Source: the human T2T-CHM13v2.0 reference genome, Homo sapiens
Length of the DNA stretch: 64,000 nucleotides
Direction: 5' to 3' (one strand)
Assembly: GCF_009914755.1 (NCBI RefSeq)
Contig: NC_060931.1
Positions 1,878 through 61,030 of this stretch are shown here, piece by piece; the stretch's first letter is position 1; each line of letters starts with the position of its first letter. The notes under the pieces are model-generated. The model was given only the letters and a program-made list of their open reading frames with translations, was not told where the DNA came from and did not search any database. Both the position numbers and the translations under genes were made by a program.

Positions 1878-2077
1878 GTCCATGCCTGAGAGATGTAGTT
1901 ATAAGGAAGCAAAAAGTTCAAGACTGTATCTACAGCCATGCTCACCATATCAAATACTTATGTTCTCAACTAACATTAAGCTTGGTATCCAGGAGCTCCT
2001 CTGGCTGGCATTGGAGGAGTCACAGCTTTGTGGTCATGTCAGGGAAGGGGAGGGATCTTATTTGTAGGCAGAATCAG
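1878..2077 (+). pseudogene. Candidate first coding exon (ATG 1882)
   Basis: Acceptor ttctttatttacttag| and donor CAG|GTATGA. Reads MPERCSYKEAK...GHVREGEGSYL*AES and ends in phase 1, matching the next exon. Confidence 0.5.
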
Positions 2078-2692
2078 GTATGATGTCTTGTTCACCTACT
2101 AAATGCAGGAACCTGGGACAAAATGAAATAATTTTCAATGACTGGGAACAGACCGAATTGCTCAGTCTTGGCTTACCTGTGAATGTTAGGACTAAGGGCA
2201 ATAGACTCAAGGGGTCATATTCAGAACACACAAATAGCAGGTTTTCAGGTGCCCCGGAACAACACTCCTCCCCTGCTTTTGGTCCGTCAAATGCACTTCT
2301 TGTGTAGATCAGATATCCTACCCCTAAGGTTAGGCACATGACTCGAACCAAGTCCCCAAGAGGCTTTCTCTGAGATTTAAAGAAAAAGGCTTGAAGTTTA
2401 CCATGTTTTAAAGGAATATTTTATTTGCATATAATCTAAAACTTATAGAAAATGGCAAGAACCTTATAAAGAACTCCTGTGTACAGTTTATTATGATTCA
2501 CCAGTTGTTAACATTTTCCCCAACTGTTTTGTTATTCATTTTTTTATCTCTTTATCCTGTACTCCTAAACCATTTCAGAGTGTGTATGGTGTTTGTTAGC
2601 CCCCAATATTGATAATGCTAACATAATTATTTATTTAGGGTATTGTTTAACAGGTCTCTCCACTGTAAAATTAATGTTTTCTCTTTGGTGAT

Positions 2693-3155
2693 TGACAAAG
2701 ATTCTCTCCATGACCAAACTTTCATCAGGCTTCTCTGAACTCTGTTCTTCTCAACTAGGTCCTGACTTGTGGGCTTCTGTGTTCATCTTTGCATTGTCCA
2801 TTTTTAGCAAAAGTTCTGCTATGTCAGTTTAACCAGAATCCCTCACTCTCGCTATCTGATTACCTTTGCTATCTGACCAAATTCCTTAACCCCCACTATC
2901 TCTCAGGCAATATCTGATCACCTTGGCCTGCCTTCAGAATTCTGTTAGGTCATTTCAGCAAAGAATTATCCCACTCTCTTAATTTTTCCCTCCACTGGCC
3001 CCTCTACCAACCTGGCTTCTTGTCTATAAATTCCTATATTTCCTTATTGTTTTTGGAATTAAGGCCAATCTCTCTTCCCTACTGCAAAACCCCATTGCGG
3101 TAGTTTCTTCTTGAATAAAGTCTTCCTTATTGTTTTTAACAAGTGTCTGAGTAAT
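2693..3155 (+). mobile_element. MER31-type ERV1 solo LTR
   Basis: Starts TGACAAAGATTCTCT...TGACCAAACTTT and has AATAAA near 3114. Confidence 0.75.
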
Positions 3156-3403
3156 CCTATATCCTGCATCATTACATAACTAATATGTTTTTCTGCATCA
3201 GTGTAGATTCTATTTCATTCACTGGATTATAACCTGTTACTATCATTATTTTGATACTCAAATAGTACTTAGTGTAGAGTTCTTATATATACTTTTAATA
3301 TTTAAATCTAAATATTTTTGAAATTGTAGTAAATTGAATTTTAAAATTTATGTGTCCAATTATTTGCTTCTAGAATCAGAAATAAACTTCAGCATATTGA
3401 TTT

Positions 3404-4415
3404 TGCATTAGTTATCTATTGCTGCATAACCAATTTTATTCAAATTTAGCCCCTTAAAACAACACATTTACTCCACCTTTTCTATATGGGGATTCACGTG
3501 AAGCCTAGCTAGATACCTGGACTCAGGGTCTTTCATACAGCTGCAATCAAGGCGTTGGCCAAGGCTGCAGTCATCTTATGATTGGATGGTGGGGCCAGGG
3601 TGTCCACTTTTAGGTCCACTTACATGGCTGTAGACTGGCCACAGGTCCTTGCTGGTTATTGGTTGCTGGCATCAATTCCTTGCTATGGGCCTTCCCACAG
3701 GATAGCTCACAATAGAACCGAGGGCTTCCCTTAGAATAAGCAAGTGATGCAATGTGAGAGGGAACCCTGGTGAAAGCCAGAGTTTCTTTGTAACCCAATC
3801 TCAAAAATAAAAAGTCATTATTTTAGCCACTTGTGGTAGGCACAATAACACAAGCCTTGTTCCCATGCCAAAAGAAATCCACATCCTAATCCCTGGAACC
3901 TGTAAATATGTTATCTTATGTAGCAAAGGGGATTTTGTAGTTGTGATTAAGTTAAGAACCTTAAGAGGATTATCTGGGTGTTCCCCAGTAATCAGAGATG
4001 GAGAGGTGCCCCAACAGAAGAGTCAGAGAGAAATTTGATACACTGATGACTTTGAAGATGCAGGAAGGGATCACAAGTCAGGGAATGCAGACATCCTCTA
4101 GAGGCTGGAAAAGGCAAGGGAAGTGATTCTGCCTGGAGCCTCCAGACAGAAGGAATGCAGCCCGCTAACACCTTGATTTTTGCACATTGAAATGCCTTTT
4201 GGACTTTTAAATTTCAGAGCTCTATGAAAATAAATTTGGGTTGTTCAAAGCTACTAAATTTGTGGTAATTTATTACTACGGGTATTAGGAATTTAATACA
4301 TGGTCATTTTATTTTAGAAATAATTCACTAATACAGCCACACTCAAAGGGAAGAGATTACACAAAGGCCTGAGTGCCAGGGTGTGGGGTGGCCATGATAA
4401 AGACTGCCTACCACA
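3404..4415 (-). mobile_element. MLT1F-like MaLR LTR, split by MLT1D
   Basis: Runs tgcattagttatctattgctgcataac ... ctgcctaccaca, in pieces 3404-3831 and 4301-4415. Confidence 0.75.
3832..4300 (+). mobile_element. MLT1D MaLR LTR
   Basis: TGTGGTAGGC...cctaatccctggaacctgtaaatatgtt...taaatttgtggtaattt...AATACA. Confidence 0.85.
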
Positions 4416-14637: not shown

Positions 14638-14721
14638 TGACTCTGCACTGAAAATTATTCTGGGCCTGCAACTGCAAGGCTTACTATAGAGAATGGTGTT
14701 GCAGAATTTTGAGTCCATATG
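14638..14721 (+). pseudogene. Exon, start of DUF4062-like domain
   Basis: ttaactttatcag| ... G|GCAAAT (GC donor). 84 bp, phase 1-1. Reads TLH*KLFWACNCKAYYREWCCRILSPY. Confidence 0.5.
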
Positions 14722-14868
14722 GCAAATTAATAAAGGTCATCATTCTGGGTCCTTCAAAGTTATATTTCACATTTTACTTTGCAAATTACTTCAAAATTTA
14801 TTTTTCTGTCTTGGCATGAGATTAGTTTAGCCACCTAAAGGCTATCAACAGTGTCTTTTGACTGACAG

Positions 14869-15066
14869 TCTCTGCGTTGGGAGTTAAGTTTGAATTTGCA
14901 TTTCAAAGCATCAATTTGTAGGCAGCAGAAGCCAGAGACTTTTCTAGAGCCCATTCTACCTTGTTAAAGAGATAGTTCCTGGACACCAAAATGTTTGAGC
15001 TGTGCCTGTGGTCACAGCCAACTTTCACAGATCTTCATTTCCTTCTGACCTATCAGAGCCTGTTAG
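14869..15066 (+). pseudogene. Exon, DUF4062-like domain
   Basis: cttttgactgacag| ... TAG|GTAATG. 198 bp, phase 1-1. Reads SALGVKFEFAFQSINL*AAEARDF...LLKR*FLDTKMFELCLWSQPTFTDLHFLLTYQSLL. Confidence 0.6.
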
Positions 15067-15729
15067 GTAATGAGAAGAAAATGGACAATGCTGTGCTCCT
15101 ACTATCATGTACTATTCGTTCACTGTCACCTCTACTGGCTTCTAGGAAGAAGTACAAATCTTAGAGGAGTAGTTTGATTCCTTGTCACAGTTAAAAACTG
15201 ATATAATCAAAGAATGAGCTTCTTGCTGGTGTCCAGTTTTTGTTACATTTTTTTTTTTAATCCAAGAGAAATATTTTTTCTAGGATAAGATTTGGAATTA
15301 CCCTCAAGCAGTTACTTAGCTCAGGAACTACTTACTGAATACCTAAATCAGTAACAACAAAGGAATTTTGTTGAGAAGGAAATTAGTGCAAATAAAATAC
15401 TCATGGCTAGTAAAATAGTATTAATAATTACATGGATGAAAAATAATGTTAAAATGGAATTTCACTAAGTGGCCTTTTGAAAGAAGAGTGAACACAAGAG
15501 GATATAATTGTTTATTAATTTGAAAAATAGGAGGAGATGTGGACTTGTGTGAATATTGTTTCTTATATTTATTTCTGTCTATAAAGAATAATTTTTTAAA
15601 CACTTGCATAAGCAGGAATCAGTGGATAGAGAGAAATAACAGTGACACAGAAAATTATAAAAAAAAATTTTAGGTAGTATAAGATAAAAGAAAGTACCAG
15701 ATAGAATGAATCACATAATATATTGCCAG

Positions 15730-15844
15730 TTGCTGGTGTAGCCAAATGTCCTCAGAAGGGAGTTGACCAAGCAGAATTGATCTCCTGTCTCCAGAATACT
15801 AACACCTTGCATAGCCCTATCACATGTGATAGGATGCCAAAGAG
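15730..15844 (+). pseudogene. Exon
   Basis: tattgccag| ... GAG|GCAAGA (GC donor). 115 bp, phase 1-2, no stops. Reads AGVAKCPQKGVDQAELISCLQNTNTLHSPITCDRMPK. Confidence 0.5.
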
Positions 15845-16502: not shown

Positions 16503-16650
16503 ATTTGAGGAGCAAGCAGATTCAGCTAACAGAATCTTTCTGGCTGATGAAGGCTGAGATTGGCTGAACATTAGTGTATCTTTTTGGATCTCTGGTTTAT
16601 GAATTTATAAATGGCGTTTTAAAATCTTCTTCCTGAGCTTAGGAACAAAG
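16503..16650 (+). pseudogene. Exon (3' boundary uncertain)
   Basis: tttttggtttggaatcttaaag|. The phase-2 start joins the previous exon (AG+A=Arg). Reads FEEQADSANRIFLADEG*DWLNISVSFW. Donor not securely placed. Confidence 0.45.
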
Positions 16651-19682: not shown

Positions 19683-19799
19683 CTATGGGGTGACAGTGTT
19701 CAAGTGTATAAACTATGGGGTGTCAGTGTTCAAGTGTATAAACTATGGGGTGTCAGTGTTCAAGTGTATAAACTATGGGGTGACAGTGTTCAAGTGTAT
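19683..19799. repeat. 30-bp minisatellite, ~4 copies
   Basis: Unit CTATGGGGTG(A/T)CAGTGTTCAAGTGTATAAA. The variable base runs A,T,T,A. Confidence 0.97.
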
Positions 19800-22769: not shown

Positions 22770-23006
22770 TATGTAACATTAAATGTTAAATTTATATAGT
22801 GTAGGTTTTGTATAGGAGGTCAAAATATAAAATTTGTACAATAAAAATTATGTAATGTTAAATGTTAAATTTGTATAGTGTAGGTTTTGTATAGGAGGTC
22901 AAAATATAAAATTTGTACAATAAAAATTATGTAATGTTAAATGTTAAATTTGTATAGTGTAGGTTTTGTATAGGAGGTCAAAATATAAAATTTGTACAAT
23001 AAAATT
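22770..23006. repeat. 79-bp tandem repeat, 3 copies
   Basis: Units start at 22770, 22849 and 22928. Copies 2 and 3 are nearly identical. Confidence 0.97.
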
Positions 23007-23700
23007 ATATTTGGTGGATTTCAAGTGGTTATGAATTTATAAATCTCAGTCATTTGTATAATAAAAATTTACTTATTTCCTTCATTGGTCCAAAAATAAT
23101 TCAAGAAACCTCAGGTGTAAAATATGAAATGCAAGATGAGAATTAAAGTAAGTGAAGGAAACAGGTGAAAAAAAATTAAAGAGGGGAAATAATGTCAGAA
23201 TTAAAACTTATTATAAAATTTGTGATATTAGATACTTCATGCTTACTACTGTGCCATAAATTTGGCTCTTAGCTTCCAGATAGCCAAAGCTAAGAGAGAA
23301 AATACGATGGTTAAGGACGAGCTACTTTTTCCTTGGTGGCAAACCAGGGGTCTTCATAAAGCAAACATTGTGATGTACTGAACGTATGCCTGCAATAAAC
23401 ATTTCAGAGAAAGCTTGCAGCTGACGCTCTATACGGAAAGTCTAGTTGTAAAAGTAGTTCAGTTGTTCTATTAGGGGCTAAGATGGCACAGGTCAAGTAT
23501 AATTACTGCCTTGTAATCTGGGTTGACAACAAGGACTACAAGGATAATTTTAGAATATCTGTGGGGAGAGATAAAGTGAACATCCTTTAGCTAATACTCC
23601 ACTAAAATTCTGTAATTGAGCTTTTGAGATGAGTAGTTTAACAGAAAATTCAATGCCGTATTCTTTAGTAAATATCAAAAGTACAGAATTTTGAAGTGTC

Positions 23701-24336: not shown

Positions 24337-24370
24337 ATGTTCAGGGAAAGATAAAGGAGACTCCCTGGGG
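24337..24370 (+). pseudogene. Micro-exon candidate
   Basis: ttcatttaaatctag| ... GGG|GTAAGA. Phase 1-2, reads (D)VQGKIKETPW and fits the next exon. Confidence 0.4.
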
Positions 24371-24516: not shown

Positions 24517-24703
24517 TACGCCTGAGGGAGACCATATTATTTATAGTTGTGTAGCTATAAACAGACATGAGCTGCATTACTAAGTATCAAAAAAAATGGG
24601 GCATAACTGGGCAGAGGAGGCAGTTTTGCTTCCAGCATTCCACGGATGTGCTGGTGAAGAATGGATCACCCGGCTAGGCTACCTGCTTGAGTGGTTCAAG
24701 CAG
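24517..24703 (+). pseudogene. Exon
   Basis: ttcttattgttcacag| ... CAG|GTGAAG. Phase 2-0. Reads TPEGDHIIYSCVAINRHELHY*VSKKMGHNWAEEAVLLPAFHGCAGEEWITRLGYLLEWFKQ. Confidence 0.65.
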
Positions 24704-25630: not shown

Positions 25631-25718
25631 CAGGAGTTTGACACTGCAGTGGGCTATGACTGTGTCACTGCACACCAGCCTGGGTGACAGAGTGAGACCC
25701 TGTCTCTAAAAATAAAAA
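25631..25718 (+). mobile_element. AluJ/FRAM 3' fragment
   Basis: ctgcagtgggctatga...agagtgagaccctgtctctaaaaataaaaa. Confidence 0.8.
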
Positions 25719-26024
25719 GGGGTATTCTATTCCAGCTGGGTGACAGAAAGTAAAGTTAGGCCAAGTAATAACTGATGAAAAATGATTTTAACATGCAACA
25801 TTAGTGAGAAAATTAGATATGTATCCCTGGAGTACTTAAATATTTATCTAATTGATAGATCATCTACTTTAGTATTTTCAGTGAATTTGTAGTGTATACT
25901 TGTTTCCATTTTGTTAAATTATTTTATTAAAAGCCAACCAAAAAGAACTAAGAGTTTAGAAATATGTTAAACACACACACACTTGCCTGTGTTAATTTTA
26001 TCTATTGGGGTGTTTGGTTATTAG

Positions 26025-26167
26025 GACAAAAGACCACAGGAAGAGATCGCTGCTTTACCTACAGTACCTTTCTTAAGAAAGAAACAACTTTATGCAGATT
26101 GGTTGTCAGATTGAATTAAAGAAATTTTCACCAAACATGGCTTCTTCAGCTGATACTCTTCACATAG
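26025..26167 (+). pseudogene. Exon
   Basis: tgtttggttattag| ... TAG|GCATAC (GC donor). Phase 0-2. Reads DKRPQEEIAALPTVPFLRKKQLYADWLSD*IKEIFTKHGFFS*YSSH. Confidence 0.6.
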
Positions 26168-26733: not shown

Positions 26734-28401
26734 CAGCTCTGGCCTCCTAAGCCTACGACTTGTGCAGTCACAGGGGCCTTGCTCTCAGGTGTCACGCCTG
26801 GTTCAATGCTCTGCTATCACCATCTTGAAATTCTCAACAATTCTTTTAATTTGTATTTTGTAAGTGAACTCCAGTGGGAAAATGGATCACCAGAGATGTA
26901 CGCAATATGTGTAACATGGATGTCCACAGTTCCTTACTGCCTTATTTGCACATAGCACAGAAGTCTAGTGAAATATGACATATGGGAGTTCAGTAATACT
27001 CAAAGCCACTGGGAGATGGAATGTTATGTCTATGACTGACTTCCCTAGAGGCCACACTTTTCTTTTGAGCCAAAACTTGCTTTTAATCCAGAAAGAAGGC
27101 AATGATGGCATTCTCAAAACACAGCCAAGGAACCCTATCATGCTCTTATTTGTGTTACTTCCTTGCATTAGCTAACCACTTACATTGAAAATATTGACAT
27201 AAAAGGAAATACAGAGCAACTAGATTATTTCATTTTCAGTTCTTCCTTACTCATCACTCAGGTAGAGAGTGTTGCTAGAATGTGTGTACATCAAGAAGTG
27301 AAATGAAGATGGTGATGATTGCACAGCAATATGAATGTACCCAATACCACTGAATTGTATACTTACACATGGTTAAAACAGTAAATTTTATGTTATATTT
27401 ATTTTATCAAAATTACATTTACCAACATGATTTGTTTTCACCTAATTTTTAAAAAGCAGTAAAATTAAAAGAATCAGCTTAATTTATAGCAGGAAGTTCT
27501 CAGCATTCTGGCTGGGCCTAAAAATAAAACTGACAATGAGAGACAGGAGAAAAGCCTATTAATTAATAAATAAATAAATGTTACATGACATGAGAGATAG
27601 CCTTTAAAAGGAAATGAAGATCAAAAGAAACAGGGAAATCTGTGTATACTTTGTGCTAAGTCTGATTAAAGAATCTAGCTATGAAGCAATGTGATTAGAC
27701 ACAAACGGTTATGCTCTGATGATAATACGTTGGGAATTCAGCAAGTCCTGTTTGTTCAGATTCTTTTCTGTGTCTCTGTGACATTCTCGTTCTCCATGTT
27801 TAGGGCAGGATGCCTGCTACATGAAGGCGTTTAGGGGAGAAGGAGGGGAGGAGGTCAGAGAGTTACCTTCCTAGGTTTTAGGGCCTGCTTTTAGGGAGAA
27901 AGGGGGATTGAGAAGATCAGAGAGACCATCTATCTTCTGTAGTTTTCTTAATTTTCTTCATGTTAAAATACTTATTATGCTAAGGTGCCTTATTTTGGGG
28001 TATCACATTCTGAGCCCAACATTAGTTTTGTGGAATCATTCCACCATTCTGGTAAGATTGATGTACATATACATATACAAGATAAGGAATACAAATTGTG
28101 TAATTTGGTGATGCTACATATAAGTAAAATGCACTCATTTTTATTTAAAATGAACATTGTGTAATATAAAGAAGAATGGTAAGATTCATACAAGTTATTT
28201 AAAATTTTAACTTTTAAAAATTTAGAATGCTGTTAAATGGCAAATAATAAACACCGTGATAAGTCGAGTGAGAGACTGTAGAAGAAAGGAAAAAAAATAT
28301 CTAATTTAGTAATTTTAATAGCATGGCTTTTTTCCTGCCTTTTGAACAAGAGGCCCCACATGCCATTTTGTACTTGACCTCACATTATGTAGCTAGCCCT
28401 G
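26734..28401 (+). mobile_element. MER45 (long form, hAT-Tip100), interrupted by an L1M 3' fragment (~27308-27415) and an LTR
   Basis: MER45 termini tgtgcagtcacaggggcc...aatgctctgct and ttttgaacaagaggcccc...attatgtagctagccctg. Decayed 8-bp TSD cttgtctg / ttcatctg. Confidence 0.75.
27486..28020 (-). mobile_element. MER34A/MER39-type ERV1 solo LTR
   Basis: Reverse complement starts TGTTGGGCTCAGAATGTGATACCCCAAAATA. Confidence 0.75.
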
Positions 28402-29101: not shown

Positions 29102-29245
29102 GACTGACTCAAGTGCTTGTCATCTTCAAAGCACACTTGGGGCCTGTGTCACAGCTGCCGGGAACTAGGCAGACAATGATCCTTGGAATCTTGCTGTTCT
29201 TTTAAATGTGAAAGGGTCAGGAAAGTCTGCCCTGTTGCCCACTTG
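29102..29245 (+). pseudogene. Exon with Walker A-like motif
   Basis: A long polypyrimidine tract ends in CAT (acceptor AG apparently mutated). Donor TTG|GTAGGT. 144 bp, phase 2-2. Reads TDSSACHLQSTLGACVTAAGN*ADNDPWNLAVLLNVKGSGKSALLPT(W). Confidence 0.7.
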
Positions 29246-29593
29246 GTAGGTATGTCTAAACTTAAGCTTTATTTTTATTTTTAAGGGATATAAAGTAAGC
29301 TGTCTTTTATAGTAAGAAAGATCCTACTGTCCTTCTATCAATAAAGCCTGCACTTCGAATTGTATTTTTATGTGGAGCAATGATTCATCAACATCCCTTT
29401 TCATCATCCACTCTGGGACTAACAGCATGCTGTGAAAGGCACACTTGATGGGGTTGTGCATATGGCCCAGTGTGTGGATGTGAAACAGATTGTTCACAGA
29501 CAGATTTGTTAGAACCTGATTCCTGTTCCACTAACATGCTTTATCAAACATCACCAAATATCCCAAATCTAGTGAATAATTTTCTGTGCATGG

Positions 29594-38003: not shown

Positions 38004-41000
38004 CCTGACTTGTAAAAACTGTAGTAAAGCTCAATAAGCTGGACTGATTTACATTCCCACTTATAGTATGTAAGTGTTTTCTTTTCACTACAGCCTCACC
38101 AGCATCTGTTATTTTTTGACTTTTTAATAATAGTCATTCTGACTGGCGTGAGATGGTATCTTATTGTGGTTTTGATTTTTTGATTTGCATTTCTCTAATG
38201 ATGAGTTATGTTGAGCATTTGTATGTTTGTAGGCAATTCGTATGTCTTATTTTGAAAAATGTTCATGTCATTTGCCATTTTTAATGGTGTTGTTTATTTT
38301 TTGCTTGTTGATTTGTTTATGTTCCCTTTAGATTCTGCATAGCATCAAACGCATAGTTTTGCAATATCTTCTTCCATTCTGTAGGTAGTCTGTTTACTCT
38401 GTTGATAGCTTATTTTTAATTTTTAAAAATTATTTAAAAATTTTGGTGGGAACACAAAAGATATATAGCATATATTTATGGGGAACATGAGATGTTTTGA
38501 TACAGGCATGTAATGTGAAATAAGTACATCACGGAGAATGGGGTAACCATCCTCTCAAGCATTTATCCTTTGAGTTACAAACAATCCAATTACATAATTT
38601 ATTTTAAAATATAGAATTAAGTTATTGACTACAGTCACCCTATTGTGCTGTAAAAATTCATTGTTTTTTTTTTTTGGTACACATTAACCATCTCCACCTC
38701 CCCCTGATTTCCCCACTACCCTTCCCAGCCTCCAGTAAACTTTATATACTCTCTATTTCCATGAGTTCAATTGTTTTGATTTTTAGGTTCCAAAAGTAAA
38801 TGAGAGCATGTGATGTTTGTCTTTCTATGCTTGGCTAATTTTACTTAACATAATGATCTCCGGTTACATCTATGTTATTAAAAATGACTGGATCTCATTC
38901 TTTTTTATGGCTGAATAGTATGCCATTGTGTATATGTACCACATTTCCTTCATCCTTTCATCTGCTGATGGACACTTAGGTTGCTTCCAAGTCTTAGCTA
39001 CTGCAAACAGTGCTGCAACAAACATGGGAGTGTAGATATCTCTTAGATATACTGATTTCCTTTTTCTTTTGGGTATATACCCAGCAGTAGGATTGCTAGA
39101 TGATGTGGTAGCTCTACTTTTAGTTTTTTGAGGAAACTCCAAACTGTTCTCCATAGTTTATTATAATACATTTTCATCAACAGTGTACACGGTTTCCCTT
39201 TTCTCCTCATCCCCACCAGCATTGTTATTGCCTGTCTTTTGGATATAAGCCATTTTAACTGGGGTGAGATGCTACCTCATTATAGTTTTGATTTGCATTT
39301 CTCTGATGATCAATGATGTTGAGCACTTTTTCATATGGCTCATTGCCATTTATATGTCTTCTTTGGAGAAATGTCTATTCAAATCTATTGCCCATTTTTT
39401 GATTGGATTATTAAATATTTTTCCTATAGAGTTTGAGCTTCTTATATGTTCTGGCTATTAATCTCTTGTCAGAGGGGTAGTTTGAAAATATTTTCTCCCA
39501 TTATGTGAGTTGTCTCTTTACTTTGTTAATTGCGTCCTTTTCTGTGCAGAAGCTTTTTAACTTAATGTGATTCCATTTGCCCATCTTTGCTTTGGTTGCC
39601 TGTACTTGTTAGGTATTGCTCAACAAATCTTTGCCCAGATCTATGTCCTGGAGATTTCCCTCAATGTTTTCTTGTAGTAGTTGCGTAATTCAAGGTGTTA
39701 GATTTAAATCTTTATTTTGATTTGATTTTTGTACATGGTGAGAGATTGGTATCTAATTTCGTTCTTTTGCATATGGATATCAAATTTTCCCAGCACCATT
39801 TATTGAAGAGACTGTCTTTCCCCAATGTGTGTTTTTAGCACCCTTGTCAAAAATTACTTCACTTTAGGTGTGTGGACTTATTTCTGGGTTCTCTATTCTG
39901 TTCAATTTGTTTGTGTCTGTTTTTATGCCAGTACCATGCTGTTTTGGTTACCATAGCTTTGTAGCAGAAGTTGAAGTCAGATAACGTGATTCCTCTAGTT
40001 ATTTTTATTTTTGCTTAGGACAGCTTTGGCTGTTCTGGGTCTTTGTGGTTCCATATAAATTTTAGGATTGTTTTTTCTATTTCTGTAAAGAATGTCGTTG
40101 GTACTTTGATAGGGATTGCTTTGAATCCCTAGATTGCTTTGGGTAGTATGGATATTTTAATAATACTGATTCTTCCAATCCATGAACGTGGCATATCTTT
40201 CCAATTTTTGCTGTCTGCCTCACTTTCCTTTCTCAGAGTTTTATAGTTTTTATTATAGTGATCTTTCACTTCTTTGGTTAATTCCTAGGTATTTGATTTT
40301 ATCTTTGGCTATTGTAAATCAGATTACTTTTTAAATTTCTGTTTCACATGGTTCACTTTTGTCATATAGAAATGCTATTGAATTTTGTATGTTGCTTTTG
40401 TATCCAACTTTACTGAATTTATAATTTCTAATAGTTTTCTTGTGGGGTCTTTAGGTTTTTCCAAATATAAGATTAAGTCACCAGGAAACAAGGACAGTTT
40501 GACTTTTTCCTTTCCAATTTGGATGCCCTTTATATGTTTCTCTTGTCTGACCCCTCGAGCTAGGACTTTCGTACAATCTTGAATAACAGTGGTGGCAGTG
40601 GGCATCCTTGTTGTGTTGCTGATATAAAAGGAGAGACTTTCAGTTTTTCCTCATTCAGTATGATACTAGCTGTGGGTCTTACCTGTATGCTTTTTATGAT
40701 ATTGAGGTATGTTCCTTCTGTCCCCAGTTTTTGAAGAATTTTTATCATGAAGGGATGTTGAATAATATTAAATGCTTTTTCAGCATTGGTTAAAATGATC
40801 ACATGGTTCTTATCCTTAATTCTTTTGATATGATATATCACACTGATTGATTTGCATATGATGAACCATCCTTTAATCCCAGGGATAAATCCCACTTGGT
40901 CCTGATGAATGATCTTTCTAATGTATTGTTGAATTTGGTTTGCTAGTGTTCTGTTGAGGATTTTTACATCAATACTCATCAGATATATTGGCAGGTAGTT

Positions 41001-41956
41001 TTCTTTTCTTGATGTGTCCTTGTCTGGTTTTGATATCAGGGTAATATTACCCTTATAGGATGAGTTAGGAAGGATTCTCTTCTCTGTTTTTCAAAATAAT
41101 TTGAGTAGGATTGGTATCAGTTCTTCTTTAAGTGTTTGGTAGAATTCAGCAGTGAAGCCATCAGGTCCTGGGCTTTTCTTTACTGGAAGACATTTTATTA
41201 TGGCTTTGATCATGTTACTTGTTATTGGTCTGTTCAGGTTTTGGATTTTTTCCTGGTTCCATCTTGGTAGGCTGTATGTATTTAGAAATTTGTCAATTTC
41301 TTCTAGATTTTCCAATTTATTGCCATATAGTTGCTCATAGTAGCCAGTAATGATACTTCAAATTTCTGCAGTATCAGTTGTAATGTCACTTTTTTCATTT
41401 CTAATTTTATTTATTTGCCTCTTCTCTCTTTTTTCGTAGTCTGGCTAAAGGTTTGTCAATTTCGTTCAACTTTTTAAAAAACCAACTTTGTATTTTGTTG
41501 ATATTTTGTATTTCATTGATATTTTGTAATTTTTTCATTTTATTTGTATTTATTTCTGCTCTGATCTTTATTATTTCTTTTCTTCTATTAGATTTGGGTT
41601 CAGTTTGCCCTTGCTTTTCTAGTTCTTTAAGATGCATCATTAGATTGTTTATTTGAAGTTTTTTTCTCTTTTTTGATGTAGACACTTATAGCTATCACCT
41701 TCCCTCTGGTTACTGCTTTTGCTGTATTCCTTAGGTTTTGGTATGTCGTGTTTCCATTATCAGTTGTTTCGAGAAATTTTTTAATTTCCTTATTAATTTC
41801 TTCATTAACCCACTGGTCATTCTGGAGAATATTGCTTAATTTCCATGTATTTGTATAATTTTCTAAATTCCTCTTATTAATTTCTAGTTTTATTCTACTG
41901 TGGTCGGAGAAGATGCTTGATATTTTAATTTTTTTGAAAGTTTTAAGACTTGTTTT

Positions 41957-42366
<410 letters not shown>

Positions 42367-43853
42367 CTATGACATCCATTTGGTCTGTAGTACAGATTAA
42401 GTCTGATGTTTCATTGTTAATTTTCTGTCTGGAAGATGTATCCAGTGCTGAAAGTGAAGTGCTGAAGTTTCCAGCTTTCATTGTATTGGGGCCCATCTCT
42501 CTCTTCTGCTCTAATAATATTCCCTTTATATATTTGAGTGCTCTTGTGTTGGATGCGTGTATATTTAAAATTGTTATACCCTCTTACTGAATTGACTATA
42601 ATGACCTTCTTTGTCTCTAGAGTTTTTGTCTTGAACTTTATTTTCTCTGATATAAGTATAGTGAATCCTGCTCTTTTTTGGTTTCCATTGCATGGAATAT
42701 CTTTTTCCATCCCTTTATTTTCATTCTATGTGTGTCTTTATATCTGAAGTGTGTTTCTTGTAGGTGACAGATCAATGGGTTTTGTGTGTTTTTTTAATCT
42801 CTTCAGCCACTCTATGTCTTTTGATTGAAGAGTTTAGTCCATTCACATTCAATGTTATTATTGATAAATAAAGACTTATTCCTACCATTTTGTTATTTGT
42901 TTTCTGGTTCTTTTGTGGTGTTCCCTTTTTTCTTTCGCTTATTTCTCTTTTTTTTCTATTGAAGATAATTTTCTCTGGTGATATGATTTCATTTCTTAAT
43001 TTTTATTTTTTGTGTATTAATTGTATGTTTTTTGGTTTGAAGTTATCACAAGGCTTGCAAATACTATCTTATAACCCATTAGTTTCATCTGATAACAACT
43101 TAACATTATTTGCATCACCAAACAAATAAGCAAAAGGAAAAACTAATAAAAAATGCACCTTAACTTCATGCCCATACTTTTTCAGTTTTTGTTGTTTTTG
43201 TTCATATATTCATATACTATTGTGCTGACTATGTCTTGAAAAGTTGTTGTAGTTCTTATTTTTAATTGGTTCATTGTTTAGTCTTTCCACTTAGGTAAGA
43301 GTAGTTTACACAGAACAGTTACAGTGTTATAATATTCTGTGTTTTTCTGTGTATTTACTGTTACCAGTTAGTTTGTACCTTTGGGTGAGTATTTCTTGCT
43401 CATTAATTTCCTTTTCTTTCTAGTTGATGTATTTCCTTTAACATTTCTTATAGGATGGGTCTTGTATTGATGAAATTCCTCAGCTTTTGTTTTTCTGGGA
43501 GTCTTTATTTCTCCTTCATGTTTGAAGGATAGTTTCACCAGATATACTATTCCAAGGTAAAAGTTTTTTTTTTTGTTTGTTTGTTTGTTTTTGTTCAGCA
43601 CTTTAATATGTAATGCCACTCTCTCCTGACCTGTAAGATTTCAACTGAAAAGTCTGCTGCCAGATGTACTGGAGCTCCATTGCATGTTATTTGTTTCTTT
43701 TCTCTTGCTGCTCTTAGGATCCTTTCTTTATCCTTGACCTTTGGGAATTTGATTATTTAATGCCTTGAGGTAGTATTCTTTGGGTTAAATATGCTTGGTA
43801 TTCTATAACCTTCTTGTATTTGGATATTGATATCTTTCTCTAGGTTTGAGAAG

Positions 43854-44856
43854 TTCTCTGTTATTATCCCTTTGAATAAACTTTCTACCTCTATCTCTTT
43901 CTCTACCTCCTCTTTAAGGCCAATAACTCTCAGATTTGCTCTTTTGAAGCTATTTTCTAGATTCTGTAGCCATGCTTCATTGTTTTTTATTCTTTTTCTT
44001 TTGTCTCCTCTGACTGTATATTTTCAAATAGACTGACTTCAAGTTCACTAATTCTTCTGCTTGATCCATTCTGCTATTAAAGGACCATGATCCATTCTTC
44101 AGTATGTCAATTGCATTTTTCAGCTCCAGAATTTCTGCTTGGTTGTTGTTCATTGTTTCAATTTCTTGTTAAATTTATTTGATAGAATTCTGAATTCCGT
44201 CTCTGTGTTATCTTGAATTTCTTTGAGTTTTCTCAATGCAGCTATTTTGAATTCACTGTCTGAAAGGTCACATATCTCTGTTTCTCCAGTATTGGTCCCT
44301 GGTGACTTATTTAGCTCATTTGGTGAGGTTAAATTTTCCTGGATGGTGTTGATGCTAGTAGATGTTCTTGAGTGTCTGGGCATTGAAGAGTTAGGTATTG
44401 TAGTATTCACTGGGATTATTTGTAGTCATCCTTCTTTCTCTGTTATTATTCCTTTGAATAAACTTTCTACTTCTATCTCTTTCTCTACCTTCTCTTTAAG
44501 GTAAATAACAATCAGATTTGCTCTTTTGAGGCTATTTTCTATATTCTGTAGGCATGCTTCATTGTTTTTTATTCTTTTTCTTTTGTCTCCTCTGTGTATT
44601 TTCAAATAGCCTATCTTCAAGGTCACTAATTCTTTCTTCTGCTTGATCAATTCTTCTATTAAAGGACTGTGATCCATTCTTCACTACACCAACTGCATTT
44701 TTCAACTCCAGAATTTCTGCTTGGTTATTTTCCATAATTTCAATTTTGTTGTTAAACTTATTTGATAGAATTCTGAATTCATTCTCTGCGTTATCTTGAA
44801 TTTGAGTTTTCTCAATGCAGTCTTCACTGTCTGGGATTATTTGTAGCCATCCTTCT
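43854..44856. repeat. Old tandem duplication of L1 ORF1 5' region
   Basis: Copy 1 at 43854-44435 and copy 2 at 44436-44856. Copy 2 lacks ~160 bp internally. Confidence 0.85.
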
Positions 44857-47800
44857 TGGAAAGGCTTTCTAGTTATTTGAAAAAAACCTGGGCATGTGAT
44901 CTAAGTTGTATCTGCTTTAGGGGGCACCTCAGGCCCAGTAACACTATGGTTCTTGAAGACTTATAGAGGGTACTGCCTTGATAGTCTTGGACAAGATATG
45001 GGAGAATCCTGTGGAGGGGAGATACTCTTGTTCTTTTCCCTTGCTTTCTCCCAAACATACAGAGTCTCTGTCTCTGTTCTGGGCCACCTAAAACTGGAAG
45101 TGGAGTGACACAAGCACCCCTGTGGCCACCACCACCATTACTGCACTGGGTCAGACCTGAAACCAGCACAGTGCTGGGTCTTGCAAAAGGCCCACTGTAA
45201 CCACTCCCTGGCTAGTGCTTTTGTTCACTCAAGGCCCTGGGGCTCTACAACAGCAGTTGGAAAAGCCAGCTGGGCCTGTGTCTTTCCCTTCAAAGCAGCG
45301 AGTTCCCCTGGGCCCTGGGTGGGCCCAGAAGTACCTTCAGGGGTCAGAGCTAGAATCACAAACTTTAGAAGTCTATCTGGTATTCTATTGTATTGCAGCT
45401 GAGCGGACACTCACACCACAAGATGCAGTCCTTCTCACTCTTCCTTCCACTTTCCAAAAGAAGAGGAGCCTCGCCTAGTAGCCACTACCGCCCCTGGCCA
45501 TGAGGAATACTGCTGGACTGCCACCGATATTCCCTTAAGGCCCAAGGTGTCTTAAGTCAGCTTGTGGTAAATGTTGACTGGCCTGGGACTCACCATTCAT
45601 TCAAGGCAGTGGGCTCCCCTCAGGCCCAGGGCAGGTCCAGAAATGCTGTTCAGGAATCAAGTCCTGTAAATGGGGACCCCAAGAGCCTATTTGGTGCTCT
45701 AACCCCCTGTGGTGGTCTTGGTACCTAAGGTGCAAGACAAAATCCTCTTTCCTTTTCCCTCAGCTTTATTAAAGCAGAAGGAGCTTTGCTCCATAGTCAT
45801 CACATCTGGTAATATGCTGAGTCTCATCTGAAGCTAGCAAGTCTCAGAGGCTGACCTGGGTCCTTGATGTGGTATCTGGGTATTGCTGCTGGTTATTCAG
45901 GGCCCAAGGGCTTTTCAATTAGCAGGTGATGAATGCTAGCAGAACTGGGTCATATCCTTCAAGTCAGTGGGTTCCCTTCTGGCCCAGGATTGTCTAGAAA
46001 TTTTGTCTGGGAGCTAGGGCCTGGAGTGGGTCCCTCTTGACTCTGACCAGTGCCCTATCCTACTGTGGCTGAGCTGGTATTCAAGGTGCAAGACAATGTC
46101 CTCCCAACTTTTCCCTCTCCTCTCCTCAAGCGGGAGGAAGGGGTTTCTTTTGAAGCCATGAGCTGCGCTGCCTGGGGTTAGAGGAGAGGTAATACCATGC
46201 CCCAGCTGGTGTCTCAGTATGTGGTATGCCCCCACAGTCCACTGTCTTCACCCTAGGACTCACCTAGGAGTTTAGCCCTAGGACTTGCCTACAAGTTGCA
46301 GTCCTTATGGCATAGTCTGCCTTTCAAGTTTACTTAGAGACCAAAAGCACTTTGGCTCTAGATAATGAGGTTTGTGGGTACTCAAGTTCAGACCCCCAGG
46401 ATTGGTGGTTCCTCTCTGGCTAAGGGCTGGTTGAAATGCTCCCTCTGTCAGTGGGCATCAGCTGAGTTTGGTCTGGTTTTCCTTTCTGCTCTAACAGAAC
46501 AGCACTGAATTCACTTCCTTACAAGTGCTGTGTTCTTTCTTCCACAGCACCTAGAGATACTCTCCAAACCATGTTGCCACTGCTGGAAGAGGGGGAGAGA
46601 TGGCATCAGTGATTTAGGACTAGTTTTTCTATCTCTTCATTCTCTTTCAAGATATGAAGTTAAAACCAGGTACTGTGAGTGCTCACCTGATTTTTGGTTG
46701 TTACAAAAGTTTATTTTATTTTATATTTTTGTAGATAGTTGTTAACTTGGTGTCCTTGCAGGGGGAATGACTGCAGCTTTCTATTTCACCATCTTGCTTT
46801 ACCTTCTGTTGTAGTTTCTTTTGCTGTGCAGAAGCTCTTTACTTTAATTAGGTCCCATTTGTCTATTTTTGTGTTAGTTGAAGTTGCTTTTGGGGATTTA
46901 GCCAACAGCCTCTTTGGAAAGCAGTCTGGAGATTTCTCAGTGAACTTAAAATAGAGCTACCATTCAACTTAGTAATCCCATTACTGGGTATGTACCCAAA
47001 GGAAAATAAATTATTCTACCAAAAATACACGTGCACTCATATGTTTATTACTGCTTTAGTCACAATAGTAAAGTCATGGAATCAACACAGTTGCCATCAG
47101 TGGTAGATCATATAAAGAAAATATGGTACATACATGCCATGGAATACTACACGCCCATAAAAAAGAACAAGATGCAGGAACATAAAACCAAATACCTCAC
47201 TTTCTCACTTTTAAGTGGGGGCACATATAGATGTAAATATGGACACACATAGACAAAAACAATTTGACACTGCCAAGGTGGGGGAGGGGGGTGTGGGTTG
47301 AAAAACTACCTATCAAATGTTATTCTCACTACTTGGGTGATGGGATCTTTACCCCAAACCTCAGCATCATGCAGTATTTTCATGTAACAAACCTGCACAT
47401 ATACCCCAATATCTAAAATAAAATTTGAAATAAAAAACTCAGTAAACTAGAAAACAGGCAAATAATACAGAAGTTTAATAAAGCCAAAGTGAATTCTTTA
47501 AAAAGATCAACAAAATTGATAACCCATGAATTAAAAATTCAAAAAGAAGAGAGAACCCAATTTATAGGTTATTACTACATGTTCTATAGTCATTAAGCGG
47601 AAATAAGTACTTTGAGTTTAAGAAGAAATTAAGATGAAATTTGAACTTAAATAGGAATATTAACAACAGCATGAAAACACTTCCAACAAATTATACTAAG
47701 TGGTTAAATTTCTTGAAACACCAACAAAACTTAAGAAATGTGAGTTAAATAGTACTAAATCTATTCAACATTCTGAATTTCCAGAAGGTGGTGAATTCTA

Positions 47801-54598: not shown

Positions 54599-54635
<37 letters not shown>

Positions 54636-56363: not shown

Positions 56364-58492
56364 AAAAATCAGACATTATTCTTATGTTGCCCTTTTAAAT
56401 ACAATGTCAATTTTCTCTATCCTACTGTTAAGGTTTTTATCTTTACCTTTGATTTTTAGTGATCTAACTACATGAAAAACTGAGGTGTGGCTTTCTTTGT
56501 ATTTGTCCCACTTAGGGTTTGCTGAACTCCTTGAATCTGGAGATGGAGTCATTCATCAGATTGGAAAGTTTTCAGCTATTATATTTTCAAATATTGCTTC
56601 TGCCCATTACCTTTATCCTCTGCTGCTAGAACCAATTACACATCTCTGTTATATTCCATTCTTTTCCATTTTTTGCAAGTATGTGTGAGTCAATTTGGAT
56701 ATTTTCTATTGACCTATCCTTGAATTCACTAATTCTGTCTCCTGCTGTGTCATCCGATTTGCTGTTAAACCCATTCAGAGTTGTGTTCCAGACGTCCATT
56801 TGTGTCTCCTTTCAAATTCCAGTTCTCTGTTGAAATTCTCCATCTTTTCATCTACTTTCCATCTTTTCCTCTATTGTTTAAAAAATAATCCTAATTATTT
56901 AAAGTTCTTATCTGTGAACTTAAACAATTGGATCATCTTTGTTTCTGCTTCTATTGTTTGCTTTTTTCTCTTGATTATTAGTCACATTTTCCTTTCTCTT
57001 CATATGTCTCCTCATTTTTATTGTATACTGGCCATATACAGTAACTGTATATACTGAGTTAGATGTTTTCTGCCAGAAAGCTTTTCCTGTTTTTCTGTCA
57101 GGCAGAGAAGATTAAAGTTGATGACCTCAATCCATTTGGATTTAATCCGGGTCATGGGTAAGTGCAACTTTGTCAGATTCAGCCCAACTCTTAATATCAG
57201 TAATCTCCGAAGTGAAATCTGACATGTATTTATTGCAGACCACTCCCTTTGGCAATCTGTCTCCCAGGTACTGAGAGATTGCAGGAGATTTCACTCTGCC
57301 TTATCAGCTCAGCACCAAACCTTCCATGCTAGCCGAGTTCTCAACAAATGTTGTATGAGAGAAAACAGCCATTTGTTTGATACTCCATCATGTTCCAATC
57401 TGTCAAACCGATTGGCCTGCCCATGAACATTTCTACTGGTTTCTCCTTCCCTCAGTAGAATTCCTCTGCCTAGGTAATGTCTGAACCTCATCTCAGACTC
57501 TGACTCAGCAAATTTCCTAATAGACAGCAACCTCAATCAATTTACCTAATTGGGACTATTCATTCTCTGTAATTTTAGTTCATCTAGTCTTTTTTTCTTC
57601 ACAGTTTCTTCACAGTTTTTTGATAACCTTATTTGATAACAGTTATTTGATAACTTTATTTGATAGTTATTTGATAACTTTAAAAAGTATATTTATGTGT
57701 GTAACTTTAAAAAGTATATATATGTGTGTGTGTGTGTACACACATGTGTGTGTAGGTTTTCACTCTGTCCCCCAGGCTGGAGTGCTGTGATATGACCATA
57801 GCTCATTGTAACCTTGAAACCTTGGACTTAAGTGATCCTCTCGCCTTAAGCTGGGACTGAGTGGCTGGGACTACAGTCATCAGTCATGCATCACTGCGCC
57901 CAGCTATCTATTTTCATTTGTTTCAGAAAAATTGTTAATTCCCTTAGTTTCTTCATTAGCCCATTGGTTGTTCAGGAGCATGTTGTTTATTCCTTGTGTT
58001 GGAGTAATTTCTGGGGTTCCTCTAGTTATTGATTTTTTAGCTTTATTTCATTGTGGTCAGAAAAGATACTTGATATAATATCTACTCTTTAAAATTTGAT
58101 GAGACTTATTTTGTCGCTAAAATGTGGTCTGTTTTGGAGAATATTCCATGTGCCGATGAAAAGAATTTGTATTCTGCAGCAGTTAACATGAAATGCTCAG
58201 TAAATGTCAGTTAGGCCTATTTGGTCTAGTATGTAGTTTAACTCAGAGGTTGCTTTGTTGATTTTCTGCCTAATGATCTGTCTATTACTGAGAGTGGAGT
58301 GTTGAAGTCGCCTACTATATTGTATTGCAGTCTATTCCTCCCTTTAGATCTAGTGATGTTTGCTTTATATGCTTGGGAGCTCTGGTGTTGAGTGCATAGA
58401 TGTTTATAATTGTTATATCCGCTGGCTATATTGACCTCTTTATCATTATATAGTAACCTTCTTTGTCTCTTCTTACAGTCTTAGTCTTGTAG

Positions 58493-58881
<389 letters not shown>

Positions 58882-59312
58882 TGCCTATGTGTGTCTTTAA
58901 GGTAAGGTGGATTTCTTGTAGGCAGCATATAGTTGCATCTTGTAAATTAGTGGTTACCAAACACCAGGAAGGGTAGGAAAGAGATGTGGATGAAGAAAGG
59001 TTGATTAATGTGTATCTATACACTCATATAGAAGAAATAAGACCTGGTGTTTGATAGATCAGTAGGGTAACTATAATTAACATTAATTGGTTGTACATTT
59101 CAAAATAGCTAGAAGAGAATGATTAGAATATAACTAGCAAAAATGAAAAATAACTATTTAAGGTGATGAATATCCTAATTATCCTAACTGGATTATATGA
59201 ATATATCAAATTATCACATGTAATCTGAAAATATATATATATATATAAAATAGATTATATACATATCAATTTAAAAAAGCATAATCCACATATCAGCTGA
59301 TTGTTAATTTAG

Positions 59313-59370
59313 GGCCACCACAGATGGTTGAACAGATTGAGTACATCACTATTTTGACTTCTACTAGAAA
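59313..59370 (+). pseudogene. Exon
   Basis: ttgttaatttag| ... AAA|GTGAGT. Phase 2-0. TG+G from the previous exon gives Trp after GKSALLPT. Three stops in this frame. Confidence 0.55.
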
Positions 59371-59731
59371 GTGAGTAGTACTTCCCCAAAGAGTACACCA
59401 CCTAGACAAATACACCCAGTGTCCTCCTCTCATAGCTCCTGTGCCCAGGAGTTCTGTCTCCATGTTTTGTTTACATCTACCAGAACATGGAACACAGCAC
59501 ATCTTCAAACACTCAAATATTCACTCACGCAAAATTGTTAGTACCATACATTTTACTGAAGATTTTACGGAAAAGATAGCAAAAGAAGTTTATATCATAT
59601 ACCTTCAGTGAACATTTTAAAAACTACCCCTTAGACATTTCTATTATTCTGCATATACTCTTCTGTTTTTCCACTAGTGGGCGTCTTTTTTCTCCATTTT
59701 TCCTAGTTACACAGATTTTCCTCCTTTTCAG

Positions 59732-59823
59732 AATTCTGATTTTTTGAACCACTGTGACAATGCATTGAAAAAGGAAGTAAACATCCTGAAGCCACCATGG
59801 AAAGTCTTTATTACATCAAAGAG
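59732..59823 (+). pseudogene. Exon
   Basis: ttttcctccttttcag| ... GAG|GTACAG. Phase 0-2, open. Reads NSDFLNHCDNALKKEVNILKPPWKVFITSK. Confidence 0.7.
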
Positions 59824-60004
59824 GTACAGATAGTGTTTGAAGGTTTTCAGAGATAAAGTTGGAATGCTAGCAAGACAAATCAGCACCAAAAACTATTTAT
59901 ATAGATAAACTATAAATATCTATACTTATGAATTGGCTCAAGTGACACAATATGATAATGCCTATACCACACATTATAAACCCTTCCTTGCTGAATTGAT
60001 AAAG

Positions 60005-60226
60005 TGTGGTTCCCTACCTGTCTGAAACCTTCAGAGCTCATAAAATGCTAACAGTAGCATACGCGAGTCCTGAGAATTCCCACCAAGAAAACAGGATTGG
60101 GCTGGCAGAACTCTATTACGGGATAGAATCGAGGCTTGTCCTCCCCACTGAAACATGGGCAGATAATTTTAGGGTTAATCTCCGGACAAGTGCAATTTGT
60201 ACCTGAGGTCAACTGAGGGGTGGCAG
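60005..60226 (+). pseudogene. Exon with Walker B- and sensor-1-like motifs
   Basis: ...ataaag| ... CAG|GTGAGA. 222 bp, phase 2-2, locally CpG-containing. Reads VVPYLSETF...NRIGLAELYYGIESRLVLPTETWADNFRVNLRTSAICT*GQLRGG. Confidence 0.7.
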
Positions 60227-60381
60227 GTGAGAATCAATATGAGGCAGGATCAGCTAATTTCCCAGCCGATAAATCCAAAGAGAGCCCTATCATATCTAAT
60301 GCTTTTCAGGCAGCTGCTATATAGGTTAATGACATGCGAAGGGGAAGACTGAGGAGCGTCTTTTCTTTTACTGCAACAAAG

Positions 60382-60437
60382 GCAGAAATCCAGTGAAAGT
60401 GGAATCACCCTTCAGCTCGAAACTACTGAGAAGCCCA
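60382..60437 (+). pseudogene. Exon
   Basis: ttttcttttactgcaacaaag| ... CCA|GTAAGG. Phase 2-1, open. Reads QKSSESGITLQLETTEKP. Confidence 0.6.
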
Positions 60438-60737
60438 GTAAGGTCTTTGGACCATTTGATGAAGCAGTGTTCAGTCAAACCCTGGAGCTCTGCACAGAAG
60501 GAGAGAGCTGTATGTTGGTTTAAACCCACACTACATTGTGTTTGCCACTTATTCCTCTGACAAAGTTACGTTAGTGCACAACAGAAAAGCCCAGCAAAAT
60601 ATACCATCTTGGGTTGATTAAACCGTGTGCTGATAATTAGTGCAAATATGCAGAAATATTTTATTAGGCCTTTTAGTTACCCATGAGGCTAGTTCTAGCT
60701 AAGGGAAACTTCTCTTTCTCCTTTTAACTGTGTTCAG

Positions 60738-61030
60738 ATGACAATGAACCATGTCTGGCAGGCAGAGGAGACACTGCAAACTTGTTTAAAGAAGAACACA
60801 GTTGCAGACTAGAGGAACATGAGTGACAAAGCTCTCCCTAGCCCTTCCAGTTAGTTCACATAGCTGCATTGCAGATTTGGACTCACTGACATACAAGAAT
60901 ATTAGAAGTATCCTCAGTCCATGAAGAGCAAGGCTCTTCTTGTTAGAATGCAATTTGTTGGCCGCTTAGAATCCAGTAATTCTTTCCAAAGATGTTGGCT
61001 GCGTCCACAGGATATATTCTTTACTGCTCT
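60738..61030 (+). pseudogene. Exon (3' boundary uncertain), post-NACHT helical region
   Basis: Strong acceptor ttctctttctccttttaactgtgttcag|, phase-1 start. Reads DNEPCL...QSSP*PFQLVHIAALQIWTH...PKMLAASTGYILYC. Confidence 0.55.

What the first reader, a model, noticed from the sequence alone, without database searches (positions are those of the whole stretch)
1878..61030. Hidden ~15-exon fossil gene for a DUF4062-NACHT (NWD/TEP1-like) STAND NTPase
Seen: most unique islands hold a splice-site-bounded segment, and the phases chain without adjustment. Chain 1: 1878-2077(1) > 14638-14721(1) > 14869-15066(1) > 15730-15844(2) > 16503. Chain 2: 24337-24370(2) > 24517-24703(0) > 26025-26167(2) > 29102-29245(2) > 59313-59370(0) > 59732-59823(2) > 60005-60226(2) > 60382-60437(1) > 60738. 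The joined translation gives KLFWACN...REWCCRILSPYVSALGVKFEFAFQSINL, then AVLLNVKGSGKSALLPTW, then ~90 aa later RIGLAEL and NFRVNLRTS. Known (recalled, unverified): this order matches DUF4062 (xRxFISS...ER..L...P.L...C.....F..IDL), NACHT Walker A (GxxGxGKS), Walker B (DGLDEL) and sensor 1 in NWD1/NWD2/TEP1/TTC41-type proteins. Inference: a lost vertebrate STAND-family gene. The ORF track shows only scattered fragments of it because exons are short and contain stops. I do not recognise it as a named gene.
Basis: partly seen in the sequence, partly recalled or inferred. Interest (0 to 1): 0.92.

Follow-up and report, generated by a model that had tools for sequence, protein, structure and literature searches.

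The report
Possible fossil NADase-ATPase gene, unproven
A gene-empty stretch of human chromosome 7 holds a string of short, stop-riddled, single-copy exon-like pieces that faintly resemble the TTC41/NPHP3/TEP1 family and are possibly (about even odds) the remains of a lost sixth member, but no living relative was found to prove it.

Summary
The listed segments exist, and those tested are single-copy. The reading has flaws: one acceptor is AT, three donors are GC, chains 1 and 2 do not join in phase, and exon-like segments are as common on the other strand (70 vs 86). No Pfam hit and no homolog was found. Against profiles of TTC41-like DUF4062 (TeTIR/NIR)-NACHT proteins there is a weak signal. 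A Walker-A-like exon (29102-29245) ends at the same phase-2 intron in a Trp codon as human NPHP3. Against: unbiased spliced searches do not beat decoys, codon periodicity is absent, and 12 stops with no frameshift is not how old pseudogenes decay. Simulated decay shows a real fossil this old would be nearly invisible to these tests. Verdict: a possible unitary pseudogene of the TeTIR-NACHT family (0.5) versus a chance assembly (0.38). Vertebrate genome alignments would decide.

The parts
1878..2077 (+). Exon-like segment, strong splice sites; no contribution to the family alignment; membership doubtful
14638..14721 (+).
14869..15066 (+). Candidate exon; from about 14931 aligns to the start of the DUF4062/TeTIR profile (broad model about 23-62); 2 stops
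15730..15844 (+). Candidate exon, GC donor, no stop; lies inside the collinear alignment but adds no score in 3 of 4 profiles
16503..16572 (+). Candidate exon start; short match to the mid-TeTIR Gly-x-x-Trp segment; end set by me after seeing the alignment, no fitting donor found
24337..24370 (+). 34-nt exon-like segment, strong donor; neutral in family tests
24517..24703 (+). Exon-like segment, strong sites, stops 6/1/3 in the three frames; slightly negative in family tests
26025..26167 (+). Candidate exon, weak GC donor; small match to the end of TeTIR
29102..29245 (+). Walker-A-like exon (motif at 29196-29246); acceptor AT after a long pyrimidine tract, or AG at 29131; donor splits a Trp codon in phase 2 exactly as in NPHP3
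59313..59370 (+). Candidate exon, 3 stops in 19 codons; small match to the strand after Walker A
59732..59823 (+). Candidate exon, best acceptor of the set, no stop; best-scoring exon after Walker A in the TTC41-like profiles
60005..60226 (+). Exon-like segment, stops 7/1/4; first about 12 residues extend the TTC41 alignment; proposed Walker B and sensor 1 unsupported
60382..60437 (+). Exon-like segment; no contribution
60738..60850 (+). Open-ended segment after an AG; no contribution; end arbitrary

Best explanation
The segments are single-copy where tested and carry 12 stops in the chained frame, and part of them (about 14869 to 60040) is likely the decayed remnant of an unannotated multi-exon gene of the TeTIR/NIR (DUF4062)-NACHT STAND family, nearest to TTC41 and NPHP3, which would make no protein today. 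Shown: the segments, their stops, the Walker-A-like exon and its intron position shared with NPHP3. Inferred from the family only: the ancestral protein would have coupled a C-terminal repeat sensor to a NACHT nucleotide switch controlling an N-terminal TIR-like domain that may have cut NAD+, as shown for TEP1.
For: Walker-A-like match is the top hit of the + strand with a 66-sequence family profile (29.3 bits; best of three decoy strands 24.2, 21.4, 24.4); hmmsearch of chain 2 gives 9.8 bits, best of 1000 shuffles of the joined chains 3.4. Its donor splits the Trp codon six residues after GKS in phase 2, as in human NPHP3; not so in TEP1 or TTC41P; a donor this good follows 18 of 1068 such Trp codons in the window (1.7%; 5.2% at the looser cut). 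hhalign of chain 2 to TTC41: score 44.2, 250 columns, best of 25 shuffles 21.0. Keeping the Walker exon and replacing the others by decoy exons: 2 of 400, 11 of 200, 3 of 200, 5 of 200 reach the real score on four overlapping profiles; codon-aware version 1, 5 and 1 of 130, with one continuous alignment from 14931 to 59785 over broad-model columns 23-348. Protein-like amino-acid make-up.
Against: No homolog: exon 60006-60224 against 5.8 billion proteins of 129-2000 aa, 0 of 5 candidates; 14640-15842 against 1.84 billion representatives, 1 hit, a repeat artefact. No Pfam or PADLOC hit. Under the codon-aware model the Walker match (28.4) is beaten on all three decoy strands (31.1, 32.8, 40.2). 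Without the Walker exon the excess is small (5, 21, 18, 78 of 150 shuffles). No pairwise similarity to NPHP3 (133-198 of 300 shuffles reach it), TTC41P, TEP1 or NWD1 pieces. No codon periodicity. No frameshift where about 24 indels are expected at my assumed rate. No RWG motif, Walker B or catalytic Glu recognisable; only one intron position shared.
Confidence: 0.5

Rival explanations
1. Chance assembly: ordinary old intergenic DNA holding one accidental Walker-A-like string, around which splice-like segments with few stops were picked and chained.
For: 70 exon-like candidates on the - strand against 86 on the + strand; unbiased spliced searches at decoy level; no homolog; no periodicity; no frameshifts despite 12 stops; three GC donors, one AT acceptor and an unjoined chain. 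The first stage read very many windows, so a one-in-a-hundred motif will turn up often (inference).
Confidence: 0.38
2. A real multi-exon fossil, but of another gene family or another part of such a protein; by eye some exons also fit the helical, winged-helix and TPR part that follows NACHT.
For: Strong donors and protein-like make-up do not depend on the family. Weak local matches of exon 15730 to the winged-helix region (15.7 bits) and across the 24703/26025 junction to amphioxus TTC41-like residues 634-669 (E 0.096). One search left out proteins over 2000 aa.
Against: Those matches are at decoy level; full-length profiles that include the helical and TPR regions still place chain 2 on Walker A; no other Pfam family in any frame scanned.
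Confidence: 0.1
3. Some segments belong to an unannotated but still transcribed or constrained element (lncRNA exons or an exapted fossil).
For: Well-kept donors; long low-stop frames without frameshifts could reflect late or partial constraint (inference).
Against: No gene or functional element annotated in or within 100 kb of the window (hub note); no Rfam match; stops in 8 of 12 bounded segments.
Confidence: 0.02

Closest known systems
TTC41 (human TTC41P, a unitary pseudogene) and invertebrate TTC41-like DUF4062-NACHT-TPR proteins
   Same: Best-fitting profiles; similar Walker A context ending in Trp, a following strand and helix, and a similar length from the DUF4062 start to Walker A. 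Would likewise be a dead human family member.
   Different: Not a copy of TTC41P: no significant match to that locus, 3.2 bits on the TTC41 HMM. TTC41P has its TeTIR in one exon and no intron at Walker A; here the same span is cut into many short exons. TTC41P shows 2 stops in 735 codons, this chain 12 in 507.
NPHP3
   Same: Phase-2 intron inside the Trp codon six residues after GKS; many short exons.
   Different: No pairwise protein similarity above shuffles; exon lengths and phases after Walker A differ (115, 144, 98 nt against 58, 92, 222 nt).
TEP1, NWD1, NWD2 (TeTIR/NIR-NACHT-WD40)
   Same: Same proposed domain order; TEP1's TeTIR is a shown NADase (10.64898/2026.09.21.753143; 10.64898/2026.09.04.749371).
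   Different: TEP1's intron lies two codons earlier, phase 0; no significant match to the TEP1 or NWD1 pieces tested; no RWG motif or WD40 repeats found. NWD2 was not compared.

Membership tests
TeTIR/NIR (DUF4062)-NACHT STAND proteins | Significant DUF4062/TeTIR profile match at the N-terminus | tested here: inconclusive
   No Pfam hit; upstream exons alone reached by 6-38 of 100 shuffles; part of one collinear alignment when the Walker exon is included; a TEP1-like TeTIR decayed to 0.2 still scored 37-53 in 4 of 5 runs against 23.1 here
TeTIR/NIR (DUF4062)-NACHT STAND proteins | RWG loop motif | tested here: not met
   In the chain frame the aligned place reads DLHF; an LRW string at the start of exon 14869 in another frame was not chosen by any frameshift-aware alignment. 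Decay could explain the loss.
TeTIR/NIR (DUF4062)-NACHT STAND proteins | Catalytic glutamate of the S-x-T-E-L-E type motif | tested here: inconclusive
   That column falls on the unresolved join between chains 1 and 2
TeTIR/NIR (DUF4062)-NACHT STAND proteins | NACHT Walker A (GxxGxGKS) after a hydrophobic strand | tested here: inconclusive
   GSGKS with the family-typical following residues is present at 29196-29246, but the first Gly is Asn; top hit under the amino-acid model, not under the codon model
TeTIR/NIR (DUF4062)-NACHT STAND proteins | Walker B (hydrophobic strand, then DG/DA, then DEL-like) | tested here: not met
TeTIR/NIR (DUF4062)-NACHT STAND proteins | TeTIR directly upstream of NACHT, collinear | tested here: inconclusive
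   Order and length fit; 1-5 of 130 decoy sets reach the score; not recovered when exons are chosen freely
TeTIR/NIR (DUF4062)-NACHT STAND proteins | C-terminal WD40 or TPR repeats | tested here: inconclusive
   None in 60.5-64 kb, in 20 kb beyond either end or in genome-wide NPHP3 TPR and family searches; these tests are insensitive to old fossils
TeTIR/NIR (DUF4062)-NACHT STAND proteins | NADase activity of the effector domain | not testable with these tools
   Needs an intact ortholog and an assay
Unitary pseudogene | No living paralogous source copy in the same genome | tested here: met
   Single-copy in DNA searches of three exon clusters and one protein search
Unitary pseudogene | Intact syntenic ortholog in another species | not testable with these tools
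   No vertebrate genomes but human are held; protein searches found none; only the best 120 of 743 hits were visible
Unitary pseudogene | Disablements typical of neutral decay (stops and frameshifts in similar numbers; ratio recalled) | tested here: not met
   12 stops, no frameshift in the chain as given; about 24 indels expected at 0.2 divergence under my assumed rate of 0.08 per substitution

The most novel reading that the evidence does not exclude
The human genome holds a sixth TeTIR/NIR-NACHT locus: the fossil of a separate vertebrate subfamily beside TTC41 and NPHP3, sharing an ancient intron with NPHP3, lost in mammals and still intact but unnamed between DNAJB9 and IMMP2L in other vertebrates, where it could be an NLR-like NAD+-cleaving receptor.
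Probability: 0.35. Interest if true: 0.68.

Novelty: new member of a known kind. Interest (0 to 1): 0.42.

Why it matters
Two 2026 preprints show that DUF4062 is a TIR-like NADase linked to bacterial Avs immunity and count five human family members, one already a pseudogene (10.64898/2026.09.21.753143; 10.64898/2026.09.04.749371). A sixth, dead member would point to repeated loss of NLR-like NADases in mammals and name a locus where an intact, testable receptor should be sought in other vertebrates. If false, the case shows that phase-chained, low-stop exon strings can be built from ordinary human DNA.

Tried and rejected
Pfam on 11 single exons: best E 0.13. Pfam on 21 genomic frames, one given twice: best E 0.066; 18 more frames on both strands: none. 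PADLOC, 7 pieces: none. PDB sequences, exon 60006: none. Rfam: none. Genome-wide DUF4062, AAA_16, NPHP3_N, TPR_NPHP3 and family-alignment searches never hit this locus; the DUF4062 search also missed TTC41P, so it is insensitive. P0119, the only hit, is a tandem-repeat protein whose summed short matches partly lie in the intron: rejected. TTC41 retro- or duplicate copy: rejected. NPHP3 duplicate: not supported. Search restricted to the exon regions scored 39.5, 37.7, 42.7 against decoy maxima 33.9, 40.4, 32.4 of 22 each, but the regions were chosen with the Walker exon in them. Three readings made by eye (LRW in another frame of exon 14869; a frameshifted catalytic motif at the 1878/14638 junction; a winged-helix plus TPR mapping) got no statistical support. 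The alignment of exons with full proteins was scrambled and not used. Atlas searches with two natural family members showed no further chordate TeTIR-NACHT cluster that could be tied to this locus and give no sequences; no atlas result exists for the window's own exons. No structure was predicted, as single short exons would not be informative.
Full report
Setting. The window is G000:C7:110422001-110486000 of the human T2T genome. No gene is annotated in it or within 100 kb (hub note). It lies in the desert between DNAJB9 and IMMP2L, at roughly hg38 chr7:109.10-109.17 Mb (both recalled, offset not checked). Much of 31-58 kb is L1, Alu and LTR sequence (ORF translations, family names recalled).

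Observation. The 14 segments exist and translate as quoted. 13 of 14 acceptors are AG; 29102 is AT, though an in-phase AG lies 30 nt further. Three of 12 donors are GC. Ten of 12 donors rank in the top 5% of the window, three of 14 acceptors in the top 6% (recalled tables). The chain holds 12 stops in 507 codons against 29 in shuffles. This is not proof: the same kind of filter finds 86 candidates on the + strand and 70 on the - strand. Chains 1 and 2 do not join in phase. The three exon clusters tested are single-copy; repeats lie only between exons, at 25631-25719 and 26762-28401.

Homolog searches. Pfam, PADLOC, PDB and Rfam gave nothing. Exon 60006-60224 found 0 of 5 candidates among proteins of 129-2000 aa. 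The stretch 14640-15842, which holds three exons in one frame, gave one hit among 1.84 billion representatives, a tandem-repeat artefact. So no close relative in those frames is in these databases. I then tested the family directly. I located TTC41P, fetched 118 TTC41-like proteins and 57 more invertebrate, protist and prokaryote DUF4062-NACHT-TPR proteins (best 120 of 743 shown; no second vertebrate subfamily among them), and built four overlapping profiles of 33 to 66 sequences chosen for spread; most mammalian TTC41 rows were left out as redundant.

Family signal, for. The best 2-kb-window hit of the + strand is the Walker-A-like string at 29196-29246 (29.3 bits; decoy strands 24.2, 21.4, 24.4). 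Chain 2 scores 9.8 bits by hmmsearch, 1000 shuffles of the joined chains at most 3.4, and 44.2 by hhalign against TTC41, 25 shuffles at most 21.0. The exon's donor splits the Trp codon six residues after GKS in phase 2. Human NPHP3 has an intron at exactly that place; TEP1's is two codons earlier and TTC41P has none. A donor this good follows 1.7% of 1068 such Trp codons in the window, 5.2% at a looser cut; three genes were compared. With the Walker exon fixed and the rest shuffled or replaced, the real chain is reached by 1, 6, 39, 2 of 120, 5, 21, 23 of 400, 9, 7, 0, 22 of 150, 2 of 400 and 11, 3, 5 of 200 and 5, 1, 1 of 130 (order TTC41, broad, invertebrate). In one search the broad profile gives one local alignment from 14931 to 59785 over columns 23-348, that is the whole TeTIR and the first half of NACHT, with one frameshift at my own join of the chains. 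The score comes from exons 14869, 16503, 26025, 59313 and 59732, each 1-4 bits; 1878, 24517, 60005, 60382 and 60738 add none. The end of exon 16503 was set by me after seeing an alignment, and these tests share sequences, so they count as one line of evidence at about the 1-5% level.

Family signal, against. When a spliced aligner chooses exons freely, nothing beyond Walker A is recovered: 27.0 vs 21.6-24.9; TeTIR 23.1 vs 16.9-27.4 and NACHT 27.8 vs 26.3-36.4. Under a codon-level decay model the Walker match (28.4) is beaten on all three decoy strands. Without the Walker exon, 5, 21, 18 and 78 of 150 shuffles reach the chain. There is no pairwise similarity to NPHP3 or to TTC41P, TEP1 and NWD1 pieces, and none of the family in 20 kb on either side. 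Twelve stops fit about 0.2-0.25 substitutions per site, at which my assumed indel rate gives about 24 indels in 1.5 kb; the chain has none. So even if the gene is real, some frames and boundaries must be wrong.

Power. TEP1 and NPHP3 NACHT regions score 70 undecayed but 17-27 after simulated decay to 0.2, the decoy range; TEP1's TeTIR stays at 37-53 in 4 of 5 runs and falls to 18-22 in 4 of 5 at 0.3. The negatives therefore exclude a young or TEP1-like fossil, not an old divergent one.

Mechanism. Today the locus would be inert: stops lie in 8 of 12 bounded segments. If it was a family member, the ancestral protein would have been an NLR-like switch: repeat sensor, NACHT, and an N-terminal TIR-like domain. 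NADase activity is shown for TEP1, weak for NWD2, absent for NPHP3 (10.64898/2026.09.21.753143, first two of seven parts, search passages and first part of the Discussion read), and DUF4062 is an NADase effector of bacterial Avs systems (10.64898/2026.09.04.749371, passages and section 8). Whether this member was catalytic cannot be told.

What is in print. The first preprint counts five human members (TEP1, NWD1, NWD2, TTC41P, NPHP3); neither text, as far as read, names a chr7 locus; their supplements are closed and may list vertebrate members that bear on this. The 44-locus unitary pseudogene table of PMC6886504 has four chr7 rows, none near 109 Mb; six coordinate prefixes were not found as chr7 starts in the stored half of its Data S6 (passages of the main text). 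PMC10195156's supplement has four chr7 mentions; the two shown are elsewhere, two were not seen. The synteny table of PMC8081664 lists no gene between DNAJB9 and IMMP2L or LRRN3 in the tetrapod and shark rows, but it may omit unnamed models (supplement rows only). PMC9004415 (passages and section 13) reports 4,303 new host-gene fossils without listing them in the text; its supplement was not read. PMC6842137 (passages) lists Ttc41 as lost in long-lived mammals. PMC3296468: listing only, supplement unavailable. Eight paper searches showed no description of this locus; GENCODE itself could not be consulted.

Verdict. A plausible but unproven unitary pseudogene of the TeTIR/NIR-NACHT family (0.5), against chance assembly (0.38), a fossil of another kind (0.1) or a living non-coding element (0.02). 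It is not filed as a member, because RWG and Walker B were tested and not met and no ortholog is in hand. If true it is a new member of a known kind. Interest 0.42.

Noticed in passing
window 22770-23008 and 19683-19799: Young-looking tandem arrays: 79-mer x3.0 and 30-mer x3.9, both 97% matched; likely VNTRs.
   Followed up: no
window about 38500-44900, - strand: Long old L1 remnant with ORF1- and ORF2-like open frames, interrupted by an Alu (names recalled); it fills much of the 30-kb gap after the Walker-A-like exon.
   Followed up: no
window 25631-25719 and 26762-28401: Dispersed repeat at 66-93% identity to dozens of genome sites, not among the longest masked stretches in the hub note; probably an old LTR element.
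   Followed up: partly
window 60005-60226: 5 CpG in 222 nt against 5.3 per kb for the window; only mildly high once GC content is allowed for.
   Followed up: partly
window about 60420-60445 and 60575-60600: Short local duplication: the same seven-residue string appears twice in one frame, once across the 60437 donor.
   Followed up: no
window 60489-60557 and 3522-3722: Chance-level strings resembling the post-Walker-B motif and a Walker B; they show how easily family-like motifs arise here.
   Followed up: partly
(protein lists): TTC41-like hits came from mammals, amphibians, coelacanth, basal ray-finned fish, a few teleosts, sharks and invertebrates, but no named bird, turtle, crocodilian or lizard; a loss in reptiles and birds or a search gap.
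   Followed up: no
L007-L016 (G000:C12 about 103.806-103.878 Mb, - strand): TTC41P is barely decayed over the part aligned: 2 stops and no frameshift in 735 codons.
   Followed up: partly
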